DNA from: Bacteroidia bacterium
GTDB lineage: Bacteria > Bacteroidota > Bacteroidia > NS11-12g > UBA955
DNA length: 64,000 bases
NCBI GenBank assembly: GCA_044224315.1
Contig: JBGAKR010000001.1
Span: 1,298,733 to 1,362,732, forward strand
Direction of reading: 5' to 3'
Below, in pieces: positions 1-10,494 of the stretch. The stretch's first letter is position 1. Every line of letters starts with the position of its first letter. The position numbers and the translations under genes are program-made. The notes under the pieces are model-generated. The model was not told the DNA's origin. It worked only from the letters and a program-made list of their open reading frames with translations, and did not search any database.

Positions 1-1219
1 TTTTGCGTTCTTCTCGATTATATTCATATTCAATTACCTCCCATTTCTCTTGTAGCACTTCATAAACTTCACCGTTTATTTCAACCTTTATTTTATCTTT
101 ACTCAAATCTTTTATTGAACCTATTGTACCATTCACCCATTTTCGGCCTGAATCATTTTTTAACATCATGATTTGAGCATCCTTTTTTAATTCAAGTATT
201 TCATTCGTAGGATAGGCACTTTTTTCAAAATATCCCTCAATTTTTGCCCTGTATTCGAACGAATGCGAGTTAATATGTTCCAGTCTTCTTGCATTCTCTG
301 AATCTGCAATTTTATTGGTGCTAGCCAATGTAATGAACATATCATCCTTTCCAGATTGAAAACCATGAACCACACGCTTGTTTAATGAAACAAGATCCTG
401 ATGATTAAAGCGTCCCACACGGATATTGTTTAGCAAACGAATAAACTCAGGATCTTTCTGACGAAATATTTCGTTTAGTTCAATGACTGAAAAATCAGCA
501 GCGCCTAAAGCTGGTAAACTGAAGAAATATGGGCTTTTAAAGTGAGTCTCGAAATATTCCCTGGAAGCATCATCTGCAACTACTGGTGGAAGCTGGTACA
601 AATCTCCAAAAAAGAGCATTTGAATACCACCAAATGGTAATTTGTTATTTCTGTATTTCTGCAATGAAAGATTGATTCCTTCCAATAAATCCACTCTTAC
701 CATCGATATCTCATCTATGATGATCATTTCCAAGGCTTCAAACAAATCTCTCTTTTGATTGTCTGTTCGGATATCCTCTTCTTTTATCAGCCGTGGAGGA
801 AATTTGAAAAACGAATGGATTGTTTGTCCCTGAACATTAATAGCCGCAATCCCAGTTGGCGCTAAAACCACATGATTCTTTTTCGTCTTCGTTTGAAAAT
901 AACGTAACAGCGTAGATTTACCTGTACCTGCCTTTCCGGTGATAAAAGCTGATTTATTCGTCTGCTCCATCAAATCAATCGCCGCCTGAAATTCTTCGGT
1001 AATAATCAGGTTCTCAGGAAGCTGGCTTTCAATTTTTGCTTTCTTTTTCTTATCAACTTTTACAACATTGATGATTTCATCATCTTTGTTTTTTATCGAA
1101 GTTTGAGTATTAGCTGGTTTCTTGGTTTTTGATTCTCTATTTCCCGAGGAATTACCAGACTTGCGTCCGACGATTCCTCCTAACACAAGTGAAGTTATGA
1201 TTGCAATTACGATCCACAT
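1..1219 (-). CDS. PIF1-family SF1B DNA helicase with N-terminal transmembrane anchor (C-terminus runs off the window edge)
   Basis: Reverse-strand translation from the ATG at 1217-1219 gives MWIVIAIITSLVLGGIVGRKSGNS... then a Walker A (GKAGTGKST), LAPTGIAAINVQGQTIHS, IIDEISMV, GGIQMLFFGDLYQLPPV and FRQKDPEFIRLLNNIRVG, which is the canonical PIF1/RRM3 motif order. The stop of the upstream methyltransferase lies 3 nt upstream. The gene is missing from the ORF track because no stop falls inside the window. Confidence 0.8.
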   Translation of the reverse strand, partial: MWIVIAIITSLVLGGIVGRKSGNSSGNRESKTKKPANTQTSIKNKDDEIINVVKVDKKKKAKIESQLPENLIITEEFQAAIDLMEQTNKSAFITGKAGTGKSTLLRYFQTKTKKNHVVLAPTGIAAINVQGQTIHSFFKFPPRLIKEEDIRTDNQKRDLFEALEMIIIDEISMVRVDLLEGINLSLQKYRNNKLPFGGIQMLFFGDLYQLPPVVADDASREYFETHFKSPYFFSLPALGAADFSVIELNEIFRQKDPEFIRLLNNIRVGRFNHQDLVSLNKRVVHGFQSGKDDMFITLASTNKIADSENARRLEHINSHSFEYRAKIEGYFEKSAYPTNEILELKKDAQIMMLKNDSGRKWVNGTIGSIKDLSKDKIKVEINGEVYEVLQEKWEVIEYEYNREERK

Positions 1220-1221
1220 AA

Positions 1222-3090
1222 TCAAATTGTTTTTATCAATCCCTTGTCACTCAACCTCAGCTTGTCCACATTGCTGATGGCACTGTCCAGGCAGATGAAG
1301 ATGTCTCCTCCCTTCAAATTCAGGGCTACCACGGTTTCAGATGCAATTTTTTCATCCAAACAAACCAGCAGGCTATGATCACAGTATTCGCTGCTCACCT
1401 TGCGGATGGAATTGCTCATGATCTCTTCCAGCGGGGTGATACTTGAACAAAGCGTGAACCCTTCGAGGAGCATGATTTCAGTGAGGAGGCCGTCTTTGTT
1501 TACTTCTTCTACCAACGGGTTGGTATTGAACATGCCGAGCTGACTTTCGAGGTATTCAATTGATTCTGTTTGTAATGATGAAAATGTTTTAAAATTTGTG
1601 TAATTATATCGAAATACGATAAAACCATATTTATTGTCTGCCTTGTGAATCACTTTTCGAATCCTTGCCTTTGAGATATCCGTAATCCTTGAATATCCTT
1701 CTTTGAAAGCTATTTTACCCTCTTCAATTAATTCAGGAATTTGTATAGAAATCATTTGGCGATTGCCATTATCTTCATTATTTAATTCAAATATTGCTTG
1801 ACTTGAGCTTCCAGAACCCGCAAAGAAATCTAAAAATATTCCTTTTTTTTCATCAGCATCATTGATTACCATTGAAAACAAATACTTAATCAGTTCAACC
1901 GGTTTAGGAAAATCAAATACCGGTTTATCAAAAATTAAATTAATTTCTTTAGTTCCATCCTGATTAAAAGGACCATTCATGATTGACAATGGTTTACCCA
2001 TGCGAATATTGCCCGCCTCATCTTTCAAGTATTGCTTAAATCTAACGCTAAATTTACCATTACTTTCCTTAATTACAATTTCATCATTTTCATAGGCTTT
2101 CATTAATCGTTCCTTTGACCAAATCCACTGTTTATCAGGCCATATTTCTATACCTTCATGTATTAATGGATACACCAAATTGGGCCTATCATCTTTACTT
2201 TTAGTAGCTAATGGTTGTGTAATATACCCCCCTCGTGTTGAATACTTTTCATCCTTTAATTTATAATTTTTTATTTCCTCATCTGTAAGTTTAGATGCAA
2301 TACTTTCAATGCTTCCCTTGCTGTAACATAAAATATACTCATGCAAATTACCAAAGCCTTTTGTTAAAGCACCTGGGCCATATTTATTTTTCCAAGTAAT
2401 TTGTTGTTGATAGTTCTCTTCTCCAAAAATCTCATTCATCACTGCTCGCAGGTTGTGCACCTCATTGTCGTCAATACTCACGAAGATTACCCCATCTTCA
2501 CGCAACAGGTTGCGGGCCAGGCGCAGGCGCGGATACATCATGCTCAGCCACTTGCTGTGGAAGCGGCCATCACTGCGCTTGTTGGTGGTCATCGGCTTGC
2601 CCTCCTCATCCACCTGCCCAGTGCGGCGCAGGTATTCCTGCAGGGGTTCGGTAAAATCATCGTCATACACGAAGTCGTTGCCGGTATTGTACGGGGGGTC
2701 AATATAGATCATCTTCACTTTGCCGGCATAGCTCTTCTGCAACAGTTTCAGTACTTCCAGGTTCTCGCCTTCAATGAAGATATTCTTACTGTCGTTAACC
2801 CCATCGGTATCAGGCGTGCCATCGGCTTTCAGTCCCTGCCCCCAAACTGGTTCCAGTGCTCCCTGCGGTGGGATGGCCGCTGCCTTTCGGGCATCGCGCT
2901 TGCCGGGCCAGAAGAGGCCAAAATGCTCCAGTTCCGGGTCTTCCTCATCCTGTGCCCAGTTGCCCAGGTTCTGCCTCAGGGTTTCAAAATTGATCTTGCC
3001 ATCTTCAAAACATTCCGGGGCAATCTGCTTCAATTGGGCAATTTTAGCTTCGTCAAAAAAGTAATGGGGGCGTAGTCTTTCGTGGGACAT
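1222..3090 (-). CDS. DNA methyltransferase, Type III Mod-like beta-class (N6-adenine/N4-cytosine)
   Basis: 622 aa. LEVLKLLQKSYAGKVKMIYIDPPYNTGNDFVYDDDF (motif IV, DPPY) lies near residue 130 and FLDFFAGSGSSSQA (motif I, FxGxG) near residue 420. The IV...TRD...I order and ~620 aa size are typical of Type III Mod subunits. Confidence 0.85.
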   Translation of the reverse strand: MSHERLRPHYFFDEAKIAQLKQIAPECFEDGKINFETLRQNLGNWAQDEEDPELEHFGLFWPGKRDARKAAAIPPQGALEPVWGQGLKADGTPDTDGVNDSKNIFIEGENLEVLKLLQKSYAGKVKMIYIDPPYNTGNDFVYDDDFTEPLQEYLRRTGQVDEEGKPMTTNKRSDGRFHSKWLSMMYPRLRLARNLLREDGVIFVSIDDNEVHNLRAVMNEIFGEENYQQQITWKNKYGPGALTKGFGNLHEYILCYSKGSIESIASKLTDEEIKNYKLKDEKYSTRGGYITQPLATKSKDDRPNLVYPLIHEGIEIWPDKQWIWSKERLMKAYENDEIVIKESNGKFSVRFKQYLKDEAGNIRMGKPLSIMNGPFNQDGTKEINLIFDKPVFDFPKPVELIKYLFSMVINDADEKKGIFLDFFAGSGSSSQAIFELNNEDNGNRQMISIQIPELIEEGKIAFKEGYSRITDISKARIRKVIHKADNKYGFIVFRYNYTNFKTFSSLQTESIEYLESQLGMFNTNPLVEEVNKDGLLTEIMLLEGFTLCSSITPLEEIMSNSIRKVSSEYCDHSLLVCLDEKIASETVVALNLKGGDIFICLDSAISNVDKLRLSDKGLIKTI

Positions 3091-3099
3091 TTCGGTTTT

Positions 3100-10372: not shown

Positions 10373-10390
10373 AATTATAATATTAAAATA

Positions 10391-10398
10391 CAAACATA
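10391..10398 (-). promoter_or_regulatory. Bacteroidota sigma-A -7 box (TATGTTTG = TAnnTTTG) upstream of the defence operon
   Basis: Plus strand reads caaacata, so the minus strand reads TATGTTTG. It is about 19 nt upstream of the MATQKY start codon in an AT-rich stretch. Bacteroidota promoters use TAnnTTTG at -7. Confidence 0.35.
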
Positions 10399-10494
10399 TA
10401 CATATTGTATAAAATATTTGCATTTATCTGAAACGGAAGAATGTCGCCTTTCCTAATATTTGATATCCACCCGGATCAAACCCGGATGATAAGG

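What the first reader, a model, noticed from the sequence alone, without database searches (positions are those of the whole stretch)
1..10423. Six-gene translationally coupled restriction-like operon not matching a named defence system
Six minus-strand genes are packed with 1-14-nt overlaps or gaps of 31 nt or less, so they are very likely one transcript.

Operon order: DUF262/DUF1524 GmrSD-like nuclease, then UvrD-like SF1A helicase, then PD-(D/E)xK Cas4/RecB-like nuclease module, then a second DUF262/DUF1524 protein, then a Type III Mod-like methyltransferase (DPPY...FxGxG), then a membrane-anchored PIF1-like SF1B helicase.

The block is AT-rich relative to the rest of the window. It sits next to an RHS toxin locus and a toxin-antitoxin module, which is the classic defence-island context.

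A Type III-like Mod with no SF2 Res is unusual. So is its tight link to GmrSD-type proteins, which are normally solitary enzymes that cut modified DNA. Here they are linked to two SF1 helicases and a nuclease. I cannot place this architecture in Type I-IV R-M, BREX, DISARM, Dnd/Ssp, Gabija, Hachiman, Druantia or similar families.

It may be a new helicase-driven R-M-like system in which the methyltransferase marks self DNA and the DUF262/DUF1524 nucleases plus helicases act on unmarked DNA.
Basis: partly seen in the sequence, partly recalled or inferred. Interest (0 to 1): 0.85.

Follow-up and report, generated by a model that had tools for sequence, protein, structure and literature searches.

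The report
Type III restriction operon with embedded extras
The block is a complete Type III restriction-modification system whose cutting subunit lies just past the window edge, joined to a known but untested helicase-nuclease partner and carrying three add-on defence-type genes. It is a variant of known systems, not a new kind of immunity.

Summary
The six co-oriented, tightly packed genes and their domain calls are confirmed. The central claim, a Type III Mod with no Res, is a window-edge artefact. A public contig identical to window 1-10516 shows the PIF1-like gene is 492 aa. It is followed 3 nt later by a 988-aa Type III Res (PADLOC REase_III 9e-189; EcoP15I Res 3e-46).

Across about 27 related loci in several phyla, and one Bacillus cereus megaplasmid, the conserved unit is UvrD helicase, PD-(D/E)xK nuclease, Mod and Res. 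The UvrD, nuclease and Res trees are largely congruent. This link between a UvrD-Cas4-like helicase-nuclease and Type III R-M was reported computationally in 2017.

The gaps nuclease|Mod and Mod|Res are insertion slots. Elsewhere they hold PLD, TIR, OLD, Fic, Septu-HNH or HTH-protease genes. Here they hold a HEC-06-like GmrSD protein and a membrane-anchored Pif1 helicase. A BrxU-like GmrSD gene flanks the operon.

Two points seem undescribed:
- The TM-Pif1 gene recurs between Mod and Res (7 of 10 close homologue contexts read, an eighth inferred) and co-diverges with Res.
- The four-cysteine Cas4-like nuclease domain is consistently split across two polypeptides.

Verdict: a new variant of a known kind, of moderate interest.

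The parts
8576..10423 (-). g1: a GmrSD-like (DUF262 + His-Me finger) protein of the BrxU/HEC-05 type. The probable true start is 10372. It flanks the conserved system and is not part of it.
   Evidence: Pfam GmrSD_N 2.9e-32 and PADLOC HEC-05 5e-32. Motifs DGQQR at residue 98 and HHIFP at residue 505. The closest solved structure is BrxU 7p9k, 1.5e-10. It is absent from all other related loci. GC is 0.399.
5917..8544 (-). g2: a UvrD-like SF1A helicase. Its last ~55 residues carry the first segment of a Cas4/RecB-type nuclease domain, with invariant C827-P-R-x-Y, H854 and E858-D859.
   Evidence: Pfam UvrD-helicase 1e-54 and UvrD_C. PDDEXK_1 profile positions 9-58 match residues 823-869. The invariant residues hold across 19 loci. 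It aligns to residues 16-885 of a fused 1161-aa homologue, P0366. It is conserved next to Mod/Res in about 27 loci.
5081..5917 (-). g3: the remainder of the Cas4/RecB-type PD-(D/E)xK nuclease domain, encoded as a separate 278-aa protein that overlaps g2 by 1 nt.
   Evidence: PDDEXK_1 profile positions 92-246. Invariant D82, D94-x-K96, Q113xxxY117 and C218xxC221x5C227. All 120 best homologues are 267-380 aa, none helicase-sized. It matches residues 901-1152 of the fused P0366. The AF2 model (pLDDT 76) hits the AddA nuclease domain and Cas4-family folds.
3100..5094 (-). g4: a GmrSD-like protein of the HEC-06 type, sitting in the variable slot between the nuclease and Mod genes.
   Evidence: Pfam GmrSD_N 4e-33 and a weak GmrSD_C hit; PADLOC HEC-06 1.4e-41. 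Motifs DGQQR at residue 76 and EHIWA at residue 521. The same slot holds a g4 homologue in L004, L083 and L106 only. A 50%-identical relative stands alone in another island. GC is 0.390.
1222..3090 (-). g5: the Type III R-M methyltransferase (Mod), a beta-class N6-adenine MTase.
   Evidence: PADLOC MTase_III 1.2e-155 and Pfam N6_N4_Mtase 1e-30. DPPY at residue 131 precedes FAGSG at residue 423.
1..1219 (-). g6: a Pif1-family SF1B helicase with an N-terminal transmembrane helix and a low-complexity linker. The window edge truncates it (full length 492 aa). It occupies the slot between Mod and Res. The Type III Res gene (988 aa) follows 3 nt downstream, outside the window, at L001:10780-13746.
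   Evidence: Pfam PIF1 6e-30. PDB Pif1 helicases 8bns 3e-120 and 5fhd 1e-79. The TM helix is at residues 1-19, with KD19 = 2.0, and is present in most of the 60 closest homologues. The full gene and Res are read in L001, which is identical to the window.

Best explanation
The block is the upstream six-sevenths of a seven-gene operon. Its backbone is a complete Type III restriction-modification system (Mod, plus Res just beyond the window edge). It belongs to the lineage that is inherited together with a UvrD-like helicase and a Cas4/RecB-type iron-sulfur nuclease. In this lineage the nuclease domain is split: its first cysteine and first helix sit at the C-terminus of the helicase, and the rest is a separate 278-aa protein. 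The two must therefore assemble into one helicase-nuclease.

Three further genes are add-ons that the backbone does not require:
- a BrxU-like GmrSD gene in front of the operon;
- a HEC-06-like GmrSD gene in the nuclease|Mod slot;
- a membrane-anchored Pif1 helicase in the Mod|Res slot.

Proposed mechanism:
- From knowledge of the family: Mod methylates one strand of an asymmetric site, and Mod-Res cuts DNA that carries unmethylated sites in inverted orientation after ATP-triggered sliding.
- Inferred: the UvrD/nuclease pair loads on the resulting ends and unwinds and degrades the invader, as AddAB or RecBCD would.
- Inferred from homologues: the two GmrSD-like enzymes act on their own against DNA with modified bases. 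This closes the escape route of phages that modify their DNA to avoid the Type III enzyme.
- Unknown: the role of the Pif1 helicase. It is a long-standing but dispensable passenger or accessory of one Bacteroidota sub-lineage.
For: **Res is present**
- L001 is identical to window 1-10516 and carries Res 3 nt after Pif1.
- Res scores PADLOC REase_III 9e-189, has ResIII+DEAD+RE_endonuc domains, and hits EcoP15I Res at 3e-46.

**The core is conserved**
- UvrD+nuclease+Mod, with Res wherever the contig reaches it, occur in 19 of 80 Mod-related loci from Bacteroidota, Spirochaetota, Ignavibacteria and Chloroflexota. They also occur in L083, L101-L103 and L105-L107 and on a B. cereus megaplasmid.
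- The UvrD, nuclease and Res trees recover largely the same clades.
- The published precedent for UvrD-Cas4 next to Type III Mod/Res is PMC5704561.

**The split is conserved**
- g2 and g3 are in different frames in 20 of 20 loci.
- All 120 best g3 relatives are 267-380 aa, none helicase-sized.
- Fused relatives of 1077-1161 aa are collinear with g2+g3.
- The cysteines and catalytic residues are invariant, and the model has a RecB/Cas4 fold.

**The slots are variable**
- Other loci carry PLD, TIR (PDC-S35), OLD/GajA-like, PDC-M59A/B (Fic), PtuB-like HNH, or HTH-M78 genes in them.

**The add-ons look autonomous**
- HEC-05/BrxU and HEC-06 were validated as single-gene defences.
- A 50%-identical g4 relative stands alone in a WYL/Fic island.
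- g4-like genes abut pglX on 31 Acinetobacter plasmids.
- Solo TM-Pif1 copies exist in L084, L100 and L104.
- The add-on genes have lower GC (0.36-0.40) than the core genes (0.42-0.455).
Against: - The Pif1 gene is not a casual passenger.
  - It sits in exactly the same slot, with 1-5-nt spacing from Mod in the loci read, in 7 of the 10 close-homologue contexts read; an eighth is inferred from a shared contig length.
  - Its pairwise identities track those of Res (r = 0.81 over 21 non-independent pairs). This fits functional integration as well as hitch-hiking.
- No experiment exists for any UvrD-Cas4/Type III system, so the degradative role of the helicase-nuclease is inference.
- Whether g1 is co-transcribed is unknown.
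Confidence: 0.7

Rival explanations
1. This is an integrated multi-motor machine. The UvrD-like SF1A helicase with its RecB-type nuclease, together with the Pif1/RecD-like SF1B helicase, forms a RecBCD-like bipolar helicase-nuclease. It is tethered to the membrane by the Pif1 anchor and is functionally coupled to Type III cleavage. On this view Pif1, and possibly g4, are true subunits of a distinct sub-type.
For: - Pif1 holds a fixed position between Mod and Res, 1-5 nt from Mod in the loci read, in the window, L083, L101, L102/3, L105, L106 and L107.
- It co-diverges with Res (r = 0.81).
- It persists while the cargo in the other slot differs: none, DUF262 or PLD.
- Pif1 also scores against RecD and RecD2 models.
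- The operon encodes the same three catalytic module types as RecBCD.
Against: - None of the 19 core loci from species-representative genomes, nor the Bacillus locus, has Pif1.
- Pif1-less loci (L003, L004, L005, L007) nest among Pif1-bearing ones in the Res tree, and L004 is sister to L083.
- Solo TM-Pif1 copies of equal similarity occur outside any R-M context.
- RecD has no membrane anchor.
- Pif1 GC is distinctly lower than that of the core.
Confidence: 0.2
2. The UvrD/nuclease pair protects the host rather than attacking the invader. It processes accidental Type III breaks in the host chromosome for recombinational repair, as AddAB or RecBCD does, and so makes a dangerous R-M system tolerable.
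For: - The fold and motifs are those of AddA/AddB/Cas4-type end-processing nucleases.
- PMC5704561 suggests an ancillary, recombination-related role.
- It is co-inherited with Res.
Against: - The same helicase-nuclease subfamily also pairs with Dcm/Vsr and other defence contexts.
- The loci sit in defence islands next to Lamassu, toxin-antitoxin and HEPN genes.
- Most hosts already have a housekeeping end-processing complex (general knowledge, not tested here).
Confidence: 0.15
3. This is the first reader's model: a Res-less, helicase-driven R-M-like system. The methyltransferase marks self DNA, and the DUF262/DUF1524 nucleases, with the two SF1 helicases, destroy unmarked DNA.
For: - The six genes are tightly packed.
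- Five of them recur in the same order in L083, and four plus the end of a UvrD-like ORF in L106.
Against: - Res is present 3 nt downstream of the sixth gene.
- g1 is found in no related locus, and g4 in only a minority.
- Relatives of g1 and g4 work alone, and GmrSD enzymes are known to target modified DNA.
- The nuclease|Mod slot holds unrelated cargo or nothing in most loci.
Confidence: 0.02
4. This is a pure chance juxtaposition. Every gene or gene pair, including UvrD/nuclease and Mod/Res, is an independent system, and they only share a defence island.
For: - Defence genes cluster in islands.
- The slots accept many unrelated genes.
Against: - The UvrD, nuclease and Res trees are largely congruent across several phyla.
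- In UvrD-bearing loci with a complete Res, Res aligns over its full length (16 of 16); Res of most other loci aligns only over about its first 640 residues.
- Gene order and spacing are fixed from Bacteroidota to Bacillus.
- The association was reported independently.
Confidence: 0.05

Closest known systems
Type III restriction-modification systems (EcoP15I/EcoP1I type)
   Same: - Mod is a beta-class N6-adenine MTase, with DPPY before FxGxG (PADLOC MTase_III 1e-155).
- Res has an SF2 ATPase and a C-terminal PD-(D/E)xK endonuclease domain. It is homologous to EcoP15I Res (3e-46).
- mod lies upstream of res on the same strand.
   Different: - A Pif1 helicase gene lies between mod and res.
- A GmrSD gene and a helicase-nuclease pair lie directly upstream in the same operon.
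- Res belongs to a clade that aligns over its full length only with Res of other UvrD-associated loci.
UvrD-Cas4-like helicase-nuclease loci associated with Type III Mod/Res (Hudaiberdiev et al. 2017, PMC5704561)
   Same: - The same pairing: a UvrD-like SF1 helicase with a PF12705 Cas4-like nuclease, next to Type III Mod and Res.
- The locus lies in a defence-type neighbourhood.
   Different: - That work describes a fusion protein. Here, and in nearly all close relatives, the nuclease domain is divided between the helicase C-terminus and a separate 278-aa protein.
- The passages of that paper read here mention neither the Pif1 nor the GmrSD occupants.
Embedded defence genes: HEC-05 (BrxU) and HEC-06 GmrSD-like proteins (Payne et al. 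2024 bioRxiv 10.1101/2024.01.29.577857; Picton et al. 2021)
   Same: - g1 and g4 are DUF262 + His-Me-finger proteins that match the HEC-05 and HEC-06 models.
- g4 is nested inside another multi-gene, methylation-based system, directly beside its methyltransferase gene.
   Different: - The host system here is a Type III R-M, not Hma, BREX, DISARM or Type I.
- Similarity to the tested proteins is moderate (BrxU 1.5e-10 over about 50 residues for g1).
- Activity is untested.
RecBCD / AddAB / AdnAB helicase-nucleases
   Same: - The same module set: an SF1A 3'-5' helicase, a RecB-family nuclease (with the AddB/Cas4-type four-cysteine cluster signature), and an SF1B 5'-3' helicase.
- The best structural matches of g3 are the AddA and AdnA nuclease domains.
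   Different: - There is no RecC- or AddB-like scaffold.
- The nuclease domain is split over two chains.
- The SF1B helicase has a transmembrane anchor and is facultative.
- There is no evidence of a complex.
Gabija (GajA/GajB)
   Same: g2 scores against many GajB (UvrD-like) models (1.6e-40).
   Different: There is no GajA (OLD-family ATPase-TOPRIM) in this locus. The match reflects only the shared UvrD helicase core.

Membership tests
Type III R-M | The Mod subunit is an N6-adenine MTase with motif IV (DPPY) N-terminal to motif I (FxGxG) and a target-recognition region between them. | tested here: met
   DPPY at residue 131 and FAGSG at residue 423. PADLOC MTase_III 1.2e-155 over 13-607. Pfam N6_N4_Mtase 1e-30.
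Type III R-M | The Res subunit has an SF2 helicase-like ATPase and a C-terminal PD-(D/E)xK endonuclease. | tested here: met
   It lies outside the window at L001:10780-13746. It has ResIII 8e-17, DEAD and RE_endonuc 3e-29. PADLOC REase_III 9e-189, EcoP15I Res 4zcf_C 3e-46, and GTGKT at residue 103. L001 is identical to the window.
Type III R-M | mod and res are adjacent and co-oriented in one operon. | tested here: inconclusive
   They are co-oriented with mod first, but a 492-aa Pif1 gene separates them, with 2-nt and 3-nt gaps. In 12 of the 16 related core loci with both genes they lie within about 30 nt of each other.
Type III R-M | Hemimethylation of an asymmetric site, and ATP-dependent cleavage that needs two inversely oriented unmethylated sites. 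| not testable with these tools
   This needs methylome data and biochemistry.
UvrD-Cas4 / Type III association (PMC5704561) | A UvrD-like SF1 helicase is joined to a PF12705 Cas4-like nuclease domain with a four-cysteine signature. | tested here: met
   UvrD domains are found, with PDDEXK_1 profile positions 9-58 in g2 and 92-246 in g3. C827 in g2 and C218/C221/C227 in g3 are invariant. The g3 model has an AddA/Cas4 fold.
UvrD-Cas4 / Type III association (PMC5704561) | The helicase and nuclease are fused in one polypeptide. | tested here: not met
   They are two ORFs in different frames in 20 of 20 loci. The best g3 relatives are 267-380 aa, none helicase-sized. Fused forms are a minority among 50%-identity representatives.
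UvrD-Cas4 / Type III association (PMC5704561) | It is encoded next to Type III Mod and Res. | tested here: met
GmrSD / BrxU / HEC-06 (Type IV-like) | An N-terminal DUF262 domain with the DGQQR motif. | tested here: met
   g1 has GmrSD_N 2.9e-32 with DGQQR at residue 98. g4 has GmrSD_N 4e-33 with DGQQR at residue 76.
GmrSD / BrxU / HEC-06 (Type IV-like) | A C-terminal DUF1524 His-Me-finger nuclease. | tested here: inconclusive
   g4 hits GmrSD_C at 4e-4, below the Pfam cut-off, and has EHIWA at residue 521. g1 has no Pfam hit but has HHIFP at residue 505, like the BrxU motif DHIYP.
GmrSD / BrxU / HEC-06 (Type IV-like) | It acts alone against DNA with modified bases. | not testable with these tools
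   Only indirect evidence exists. Homologous families were validated as single genes, and a 50%-identical g4 relative stands alone.
Pif1 (SF1B) helicases | A Pif1-type helicase core homologous to solved bacterial Pif1 enzymes. | tested here: met
   PDB 8bns 3e-120 and BaPif1 5fhd 1e-79, both over residues ~70-488. Walker A GKAGTGKS at residue 95 and IIIDE at residue 166.
Gabija | A GajA OLD-family ATPase-TOPRIM partner of the UvrD-like GajB. | tested here: not met
   No protein in the operon hits GajA/OLD.
BREX / DISARM / MANTIS (Gao_RL) / Dnd-Ssp | The signature genes: PglX/PglZ/BrxC; DrmA/DrmB; the AAA+ MtsA with a PglX-like MtsC; DndA-E/SspA-D. | tested here: not met
   PADLOC gives no such hits. 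There are only weak SspE and DruK similarities that reflect shared DUF262 or PD-(D/E)xK domains. The MANTIS composition was read.

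The most novel reading that the evidence does not exclude
In one Bacteroidota lineage, a Type III restriction enzyme has recruited a dedicated, membrane-tethered, RecBCD-like two-motor degradation machine. The machine consists of a UvrD-type 3'-5' helicase, a RecB/Cas4-type nuclease and a transmembrane-anchored Pif1 5'-3' helicase. The nuclease's iron-sulfur cluster is built from cysteines on two polypeptides. On this reading, restriction and processive destruction of entering DNA are physically coupled at the cell membrane.
Probability: 0.15. Interest if true: 0.7.

Novelty: new variant of a known kind. Interest (0 to 1): 0.42.

Why it matters
- The 'orphan Type III Mod with GmrSD nucleases' idea comes from where the window was cut, so it should not be pursued as a new immune system.
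- What remains is a clean natural example of a modular defence operon. A conserved four-gene backbone has two defined insertion slots that exchange unrelated defence genes. This extends the 'guilt-by-embedding' idea to Type III R-M.
- The UvrD/Cas4-type partner of Type III enzymes is widespread, from Bacteroidota to Bacillus, yet I found no experimental study of it in the searched library. Its split Fe-S nuclease makes a testable prediction: an obligate heterodimer.
- The recurrent membrane-anchored Pif1 between mod and res is a concrete candidate for either a new accessory factor of restriction or a new single-gene defence.

Tried and rejected
- **Frameshifted pseudogene for g2/g3:** rejected. 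The two-ORF arrangement holds in 20 of 20 loci and in all 120 best g3 relatives, and the catalytic residues are invariant.
- **Gabija:** rejected. g2 hits GajB models, but no GajA is present.
- **Druantia/DISARM:** rejected. Only a weak DruK hit exists, and only a neighbour locus has a DrmC-like PLD.
- **MANTIS/Gao_RL:** rejected. Its composition differs: an AAA+ ATPase and a PglX-like MTase.
- **Metagenome scan with Pif1:** it returned only 15 distant loci (at most 49% identity) and none had the core. It was uninformative about embedding.
- **Viral-contig scan with g3:** it found nothing, so there is no sign the system is phage-borne.
- **Sigma-70 promoter and terminator scan:** counts were below shuffle expectation, and the scan does not suit Bacteroidota promoters.
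- **Literature:** full-text searches for Pif1 with Type III R-M, or for a transmembrane Pif1 in Bacteroidetes, found nothing relevant. Absence from this library does not prove novelty.

Full report
**Observation.** The window's left 10.4 kb holds five complete minus-strand ORFs: 8576-10423, 5917-8544, 5081-5917, 3100-5094 and 1222-3090. A sixth starts at 1219 and runs off the window. In operon order, the spacings are a 31-nt gap, a 1-nt overlap, a 14-nt overlap, a 9-nt gap and a 2-nt gap.

Pfam and PADLOC confirm every domain call:
- g1: GmrSD_N.
- g2: UvrD.
- g3: PDDEXK_1.
- g4: GmrSD_N plus a weak GmrSD_C.
- g5: Type III methyltransferase (MTase_III 1.2e-155).
- g6: PIF1.

Catalytic motifs are intact throughout. 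The neighbours are an RHS-repeat protein with a T9SS sorting tail and an MqsR/MqsA-Panacea toxin-antitoxin pair. GC is 0.407 in the block against 0.438 for the rest of the window.

**The missing Res is a window-edge artefact.** An exact-sequence look-up of Mod returned a 16-kb public contig, L001. It is 100% identical to window 1-10516 with no mismatch or gap. On that contig the PIF1-like gene is 492 aa. It is followed 3 nt later by a 988-aa protein with these features:
- ResIII, DEAD and RE_endonuc domains;
- PADLOC REase_III at 9e-189;
- homology to the EcoP15I Res subunit, 4zcf_C at 3e-46.

The operon therefore has at least seven genes and contains a complete Type III R-M pair. 'Mod without Res' was the main reason the finding looked new, and it is not true.

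**What is conserved.** I scanned one genome per species with Mod and kept the best 80 loci with 10-kb flanks. I then ran tblastn with all the operon proteins against them.
- 19 loci carry UvrD, the PD-(D/E)xK protein and Mod in the window's order, followed by Res wherever the contig reaches it (16 loci). They come from Bacteroidota, Spirochaetota, Ignavibacteria, Chloroflexota and others.
- In all 16 core loci where Res is complete it aligns over its full length at 42-67% identity. In most of the other 61 loci Res aligns only over about its first 640 residues.
- The same four genes sit next to a Lamassu system on a Bacillus cereus megaplasmid.
- Neighbour-joining trees of UvrD, nuclease and Res recover largely the same clades. 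The Mod tree is less congruent, as expected if specificity domains are exchanged.

The four genes are thus one inherited unit. This is not new. Hudaiberdiev et al. 2017 (PMC5704561) reported that the most common neighbourhood of UvrD-Cas4-like helicase-nucleases is Type III Mod and Res. A full-text search found no other paper that uses the term and no experimental study.

**A conserved split of the nuclease.** The last ~55 residues of g2 match the start of the PDDEXK_1 profile (positions 9-58). g3 matches the rest (positions 92-246).
- g2 and g3 lie in different reading frames in all 20 loci examined.
- All 120 closest g3 relatives are short, 267-380 aa, and none is helicase-sized.
- Among 50%-identity representatives, most full-length matches are about 270-300 aa. 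A few are fused proteins of 1077-1161 aa.
- One fused protein, P0366, aligns with g2 over its residues 16-885 (48% identity) and with g3 over residues 901-1152.

So the split is a real and dominant variant of the published fusion, not a frameshift error.

Across 19 loci the following residues are invariant:
- in g2: C827-P-R-x-Y, H854 and E858-D859;
- in g3: D82, D94-x-K96, Q113xxxY117 and C218xxC221x5C227.

This is the Cas4/AddB pattern of one N-terminal and three C-terminal cysteines around a RecB-type active site. Here the pattern is spread over two chains. An AlphaFold2 model of g3 (pLDDT 76) best matches the nuclease domain of AddA, Cas4-family ACE1, Cas4 SSO0001 and AdnA. I infer that g2 and g3 form an obligate heterodimer that shares the cluster. 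This was not shown here.

**The other three genes occupy variable positions.** The gap between nuclease and Mod, and the gap between Mod and Res, are empty in most core loci. In others they carry unrelated defence-type genes:
- L003 and L102: a PLD nuclease.
- L027: a TIR protein (PDC-S35) plus an OLD/GajA-like ATPase-TOPRIM.
- L019: PDC-M59A/B, with a Fic domain.
- L041: a PtuB-like HNH protein.
- L041 and L069: HTH-M78 proteins.
- L069: a HigB-like toxin.

This matches the 'embedded defence gene' pattern described for Hma, BREX, DISARM and Type I R-M (bioRxiv 10.1101/2024.01.29.577857). In that study, GmrSD-like HEC-05 (BrxU) and HEC-06 were validated as single-gene defences.

The evidence for each GmrSD-like gene here is as follows.
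- g1 matches HEC-05 (5e-32) and BrxU (7p9k, 1.5e-10). It occurs in no other related locus.
- g4 matches HEC-06 (1.4e-41). It occupies the nuclease|Mod slot in L004, L083 and L106.
This is indirect.
  - A 50%-identical relative stands alone in a WYL/Fic/DUF2779 island.
  - 28%-identical relatives abut pglX of BREX on 31 Acinetobacter plasmids.
- The three add-on genes have lower GC (0.36-0.40) than the four core genes (0.42-0.455).

**The Pif1 gene is the least ordinary part.** g6 is a genuine Pif1-family SF1B helicase (8bns 3e-120, BaPif1 1e-79). It has an N-terminal transmembrane helix and a Ser/Thr/Lys/Pro-rich linker, and both features are present in most of its 60 closest relatives.

I read ten contexts of homologues at 56-100% identity.
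- Seven lie exactly between Mod and Res of a UvrD/nuclease/Type III locus: the window, L083, L101, L102/103, L105, L106 and L107.
- An eighth is inferred from a shared contig length.
- Three are solo: L084, L100 and L104.

Among the seven embedded loci, Pif1 pairwise identities track those of Res (r = 0.81 over 21 non-independent pairs). This indicates long co-inheritance.

Several results argue against Pif1 being required:
- None of the 19 species-representative core loci has it.
- Pif1-less loci nest among Pif1-bearing ones in the Res tree, and L004 is sister to L083.
- Solo copies intermingle with embedded ones in the Pif1 tree.

I conclude that Pif1 is a stable but dispensable occupant of one Bacteroidota sub-lineage. 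Whether it is an accessory motor or an autonomous embedded gene cannot be decided from sequence. I found no paper describing it.

**Most likely mechanism.**
- Established for the family: Mod hemimethylates an asymmetric site. Mod-Res complexes bound at unmethylated sites in inverted orientation slide after ATP hydrolysis and cut.
- Inferred: the UvrD/nuclease heterodimer loads on the ends and degrades the invader, as AddAB or RecBCD would.
- Inferred from homologues: the two GmrSD-like enzymes act independently on DNA with modified bases. They cover phages that escape the Type III enzyme by modifying their DNA.
- Open: the role of Pif1. An SF1A helicase, a RecB nuclease and an SF1B helicase in one operon suggest a RecBCD-like two-motor engine. 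I give that about 0.15-0.2.

**Comparison and verdict.** The locus meets the tested defining features of Type III R-M, apart from strict mod-res adjacency. It matches the published UvrD-Cas4/Type III association, except that the helicase-nuclease is split. It matches GmrSD-like embedded genes at the domain and motif level. It does not meet the criteria for Gabija, BREX, DISARM, Dnd/Ssp or MANTIS.

The proposed Res-less mechanism is not. I classify the locus as a new variant of a known kind, on two grounds: the recurrent membrane-anchored Pif1 between mod and res, and the conserved two-chain Fe-S nuclease. Interest is moderate.

Noticed in passing
window 10495-15644 (minus strand): An RHS-repeat protein is split into a 1553-aa ORF and an overlapping 163-aa ORF. 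The short ORF carries one more RHS repeat and a T9SS C-terminal sorting domain. This may be a frameshifted or two-part secreted RHS protein. No toxin domain was identified.
   Followed up: partly
window 16701-18071 (minus strand): This is a toxin-antitoxin pair. The 116-aa protein is MqsR-like. The 338-aa protein combines an MqsA/HTH N-terminus with a SocA/Panacea domain.
   Followed up: partly
L082 (whole locus; differences at window positions 1850, 2646, 8450, 9816, 10148): A second public contig of the same locus differs from the window by five 1-nt deletions, all in homopolymer runs (T8, G4, A7, G5, T8), and by one substitution. The deletions fragment g1, the UvrD start and Mod. They are probably read errors. 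However, two lie inside mod, so phase variation was not excluded.
   Followed up: partly
window 10372-10423: The longest ORF for g1 adds 17 hydrophobic residues (MQIFYTICICLYFNIII) upstream of the start used by gene callers (598 aa). The exact 615-aa sequence is absent from the protein collection.
   Followed up: partly
L001:13737-15868 (beyond the window's left edge): Downstream of Res lie four further ORFs: a 33-aa ORF that overlaps the Res stop, a 274-aa protein with no family match, a 169-aa LRAT/NlpC-like protein, and a 161-aa HTH protein on the opposite strand.
   Followed up: partly
L084:6102-9608: A solo copy of the transmembrane Pif1 (Algoriphagus sp. NG3) sits beside a Schlafen/AlbA_2-type ATPase, an ISL3 transposase and a resolvase-like gene. 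This is a mobile or defence-island setting without any R-M genes.
   Followed up: no
L041:11938-13900: Between Mod and Res of a Spirochaetota core locus lies a PtuB-like HNH gene (Septu, 3e-61). It is preceded only by small ORFs, so the expected PtuA ATPase seems missing or degraded.
   Followed up: no
plasmid hits H30-H41 (e.g. NZ_KY888886.1 44885-46603): DUF262 proteins 28% identical to g4 directly abut or overlap the annotated pglX gene of BREX-1 on 31 Acinetobacter plasmids. These GmrSD-like genes also sit right next to a methyltransferase gene.
   Followed up: no
window 1-10423 and L001:9298-13746: GC content separates the genes into two groups. The core genes are UvrD 0.425, nuclease 0.455, Mod 0.418 and Res 0.437. 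The add-ons are g1 0.399, g4 0.390 and Pif1 0.362-0.368.
   Followed up: yes
window 20935-24876 (minus strand): A 1313-aa protein has only a T9SS C-terminal sorting domain recognisable. With the RHS protein's sorting tail, this points to a Bacteroidota host.
   Followed up: no
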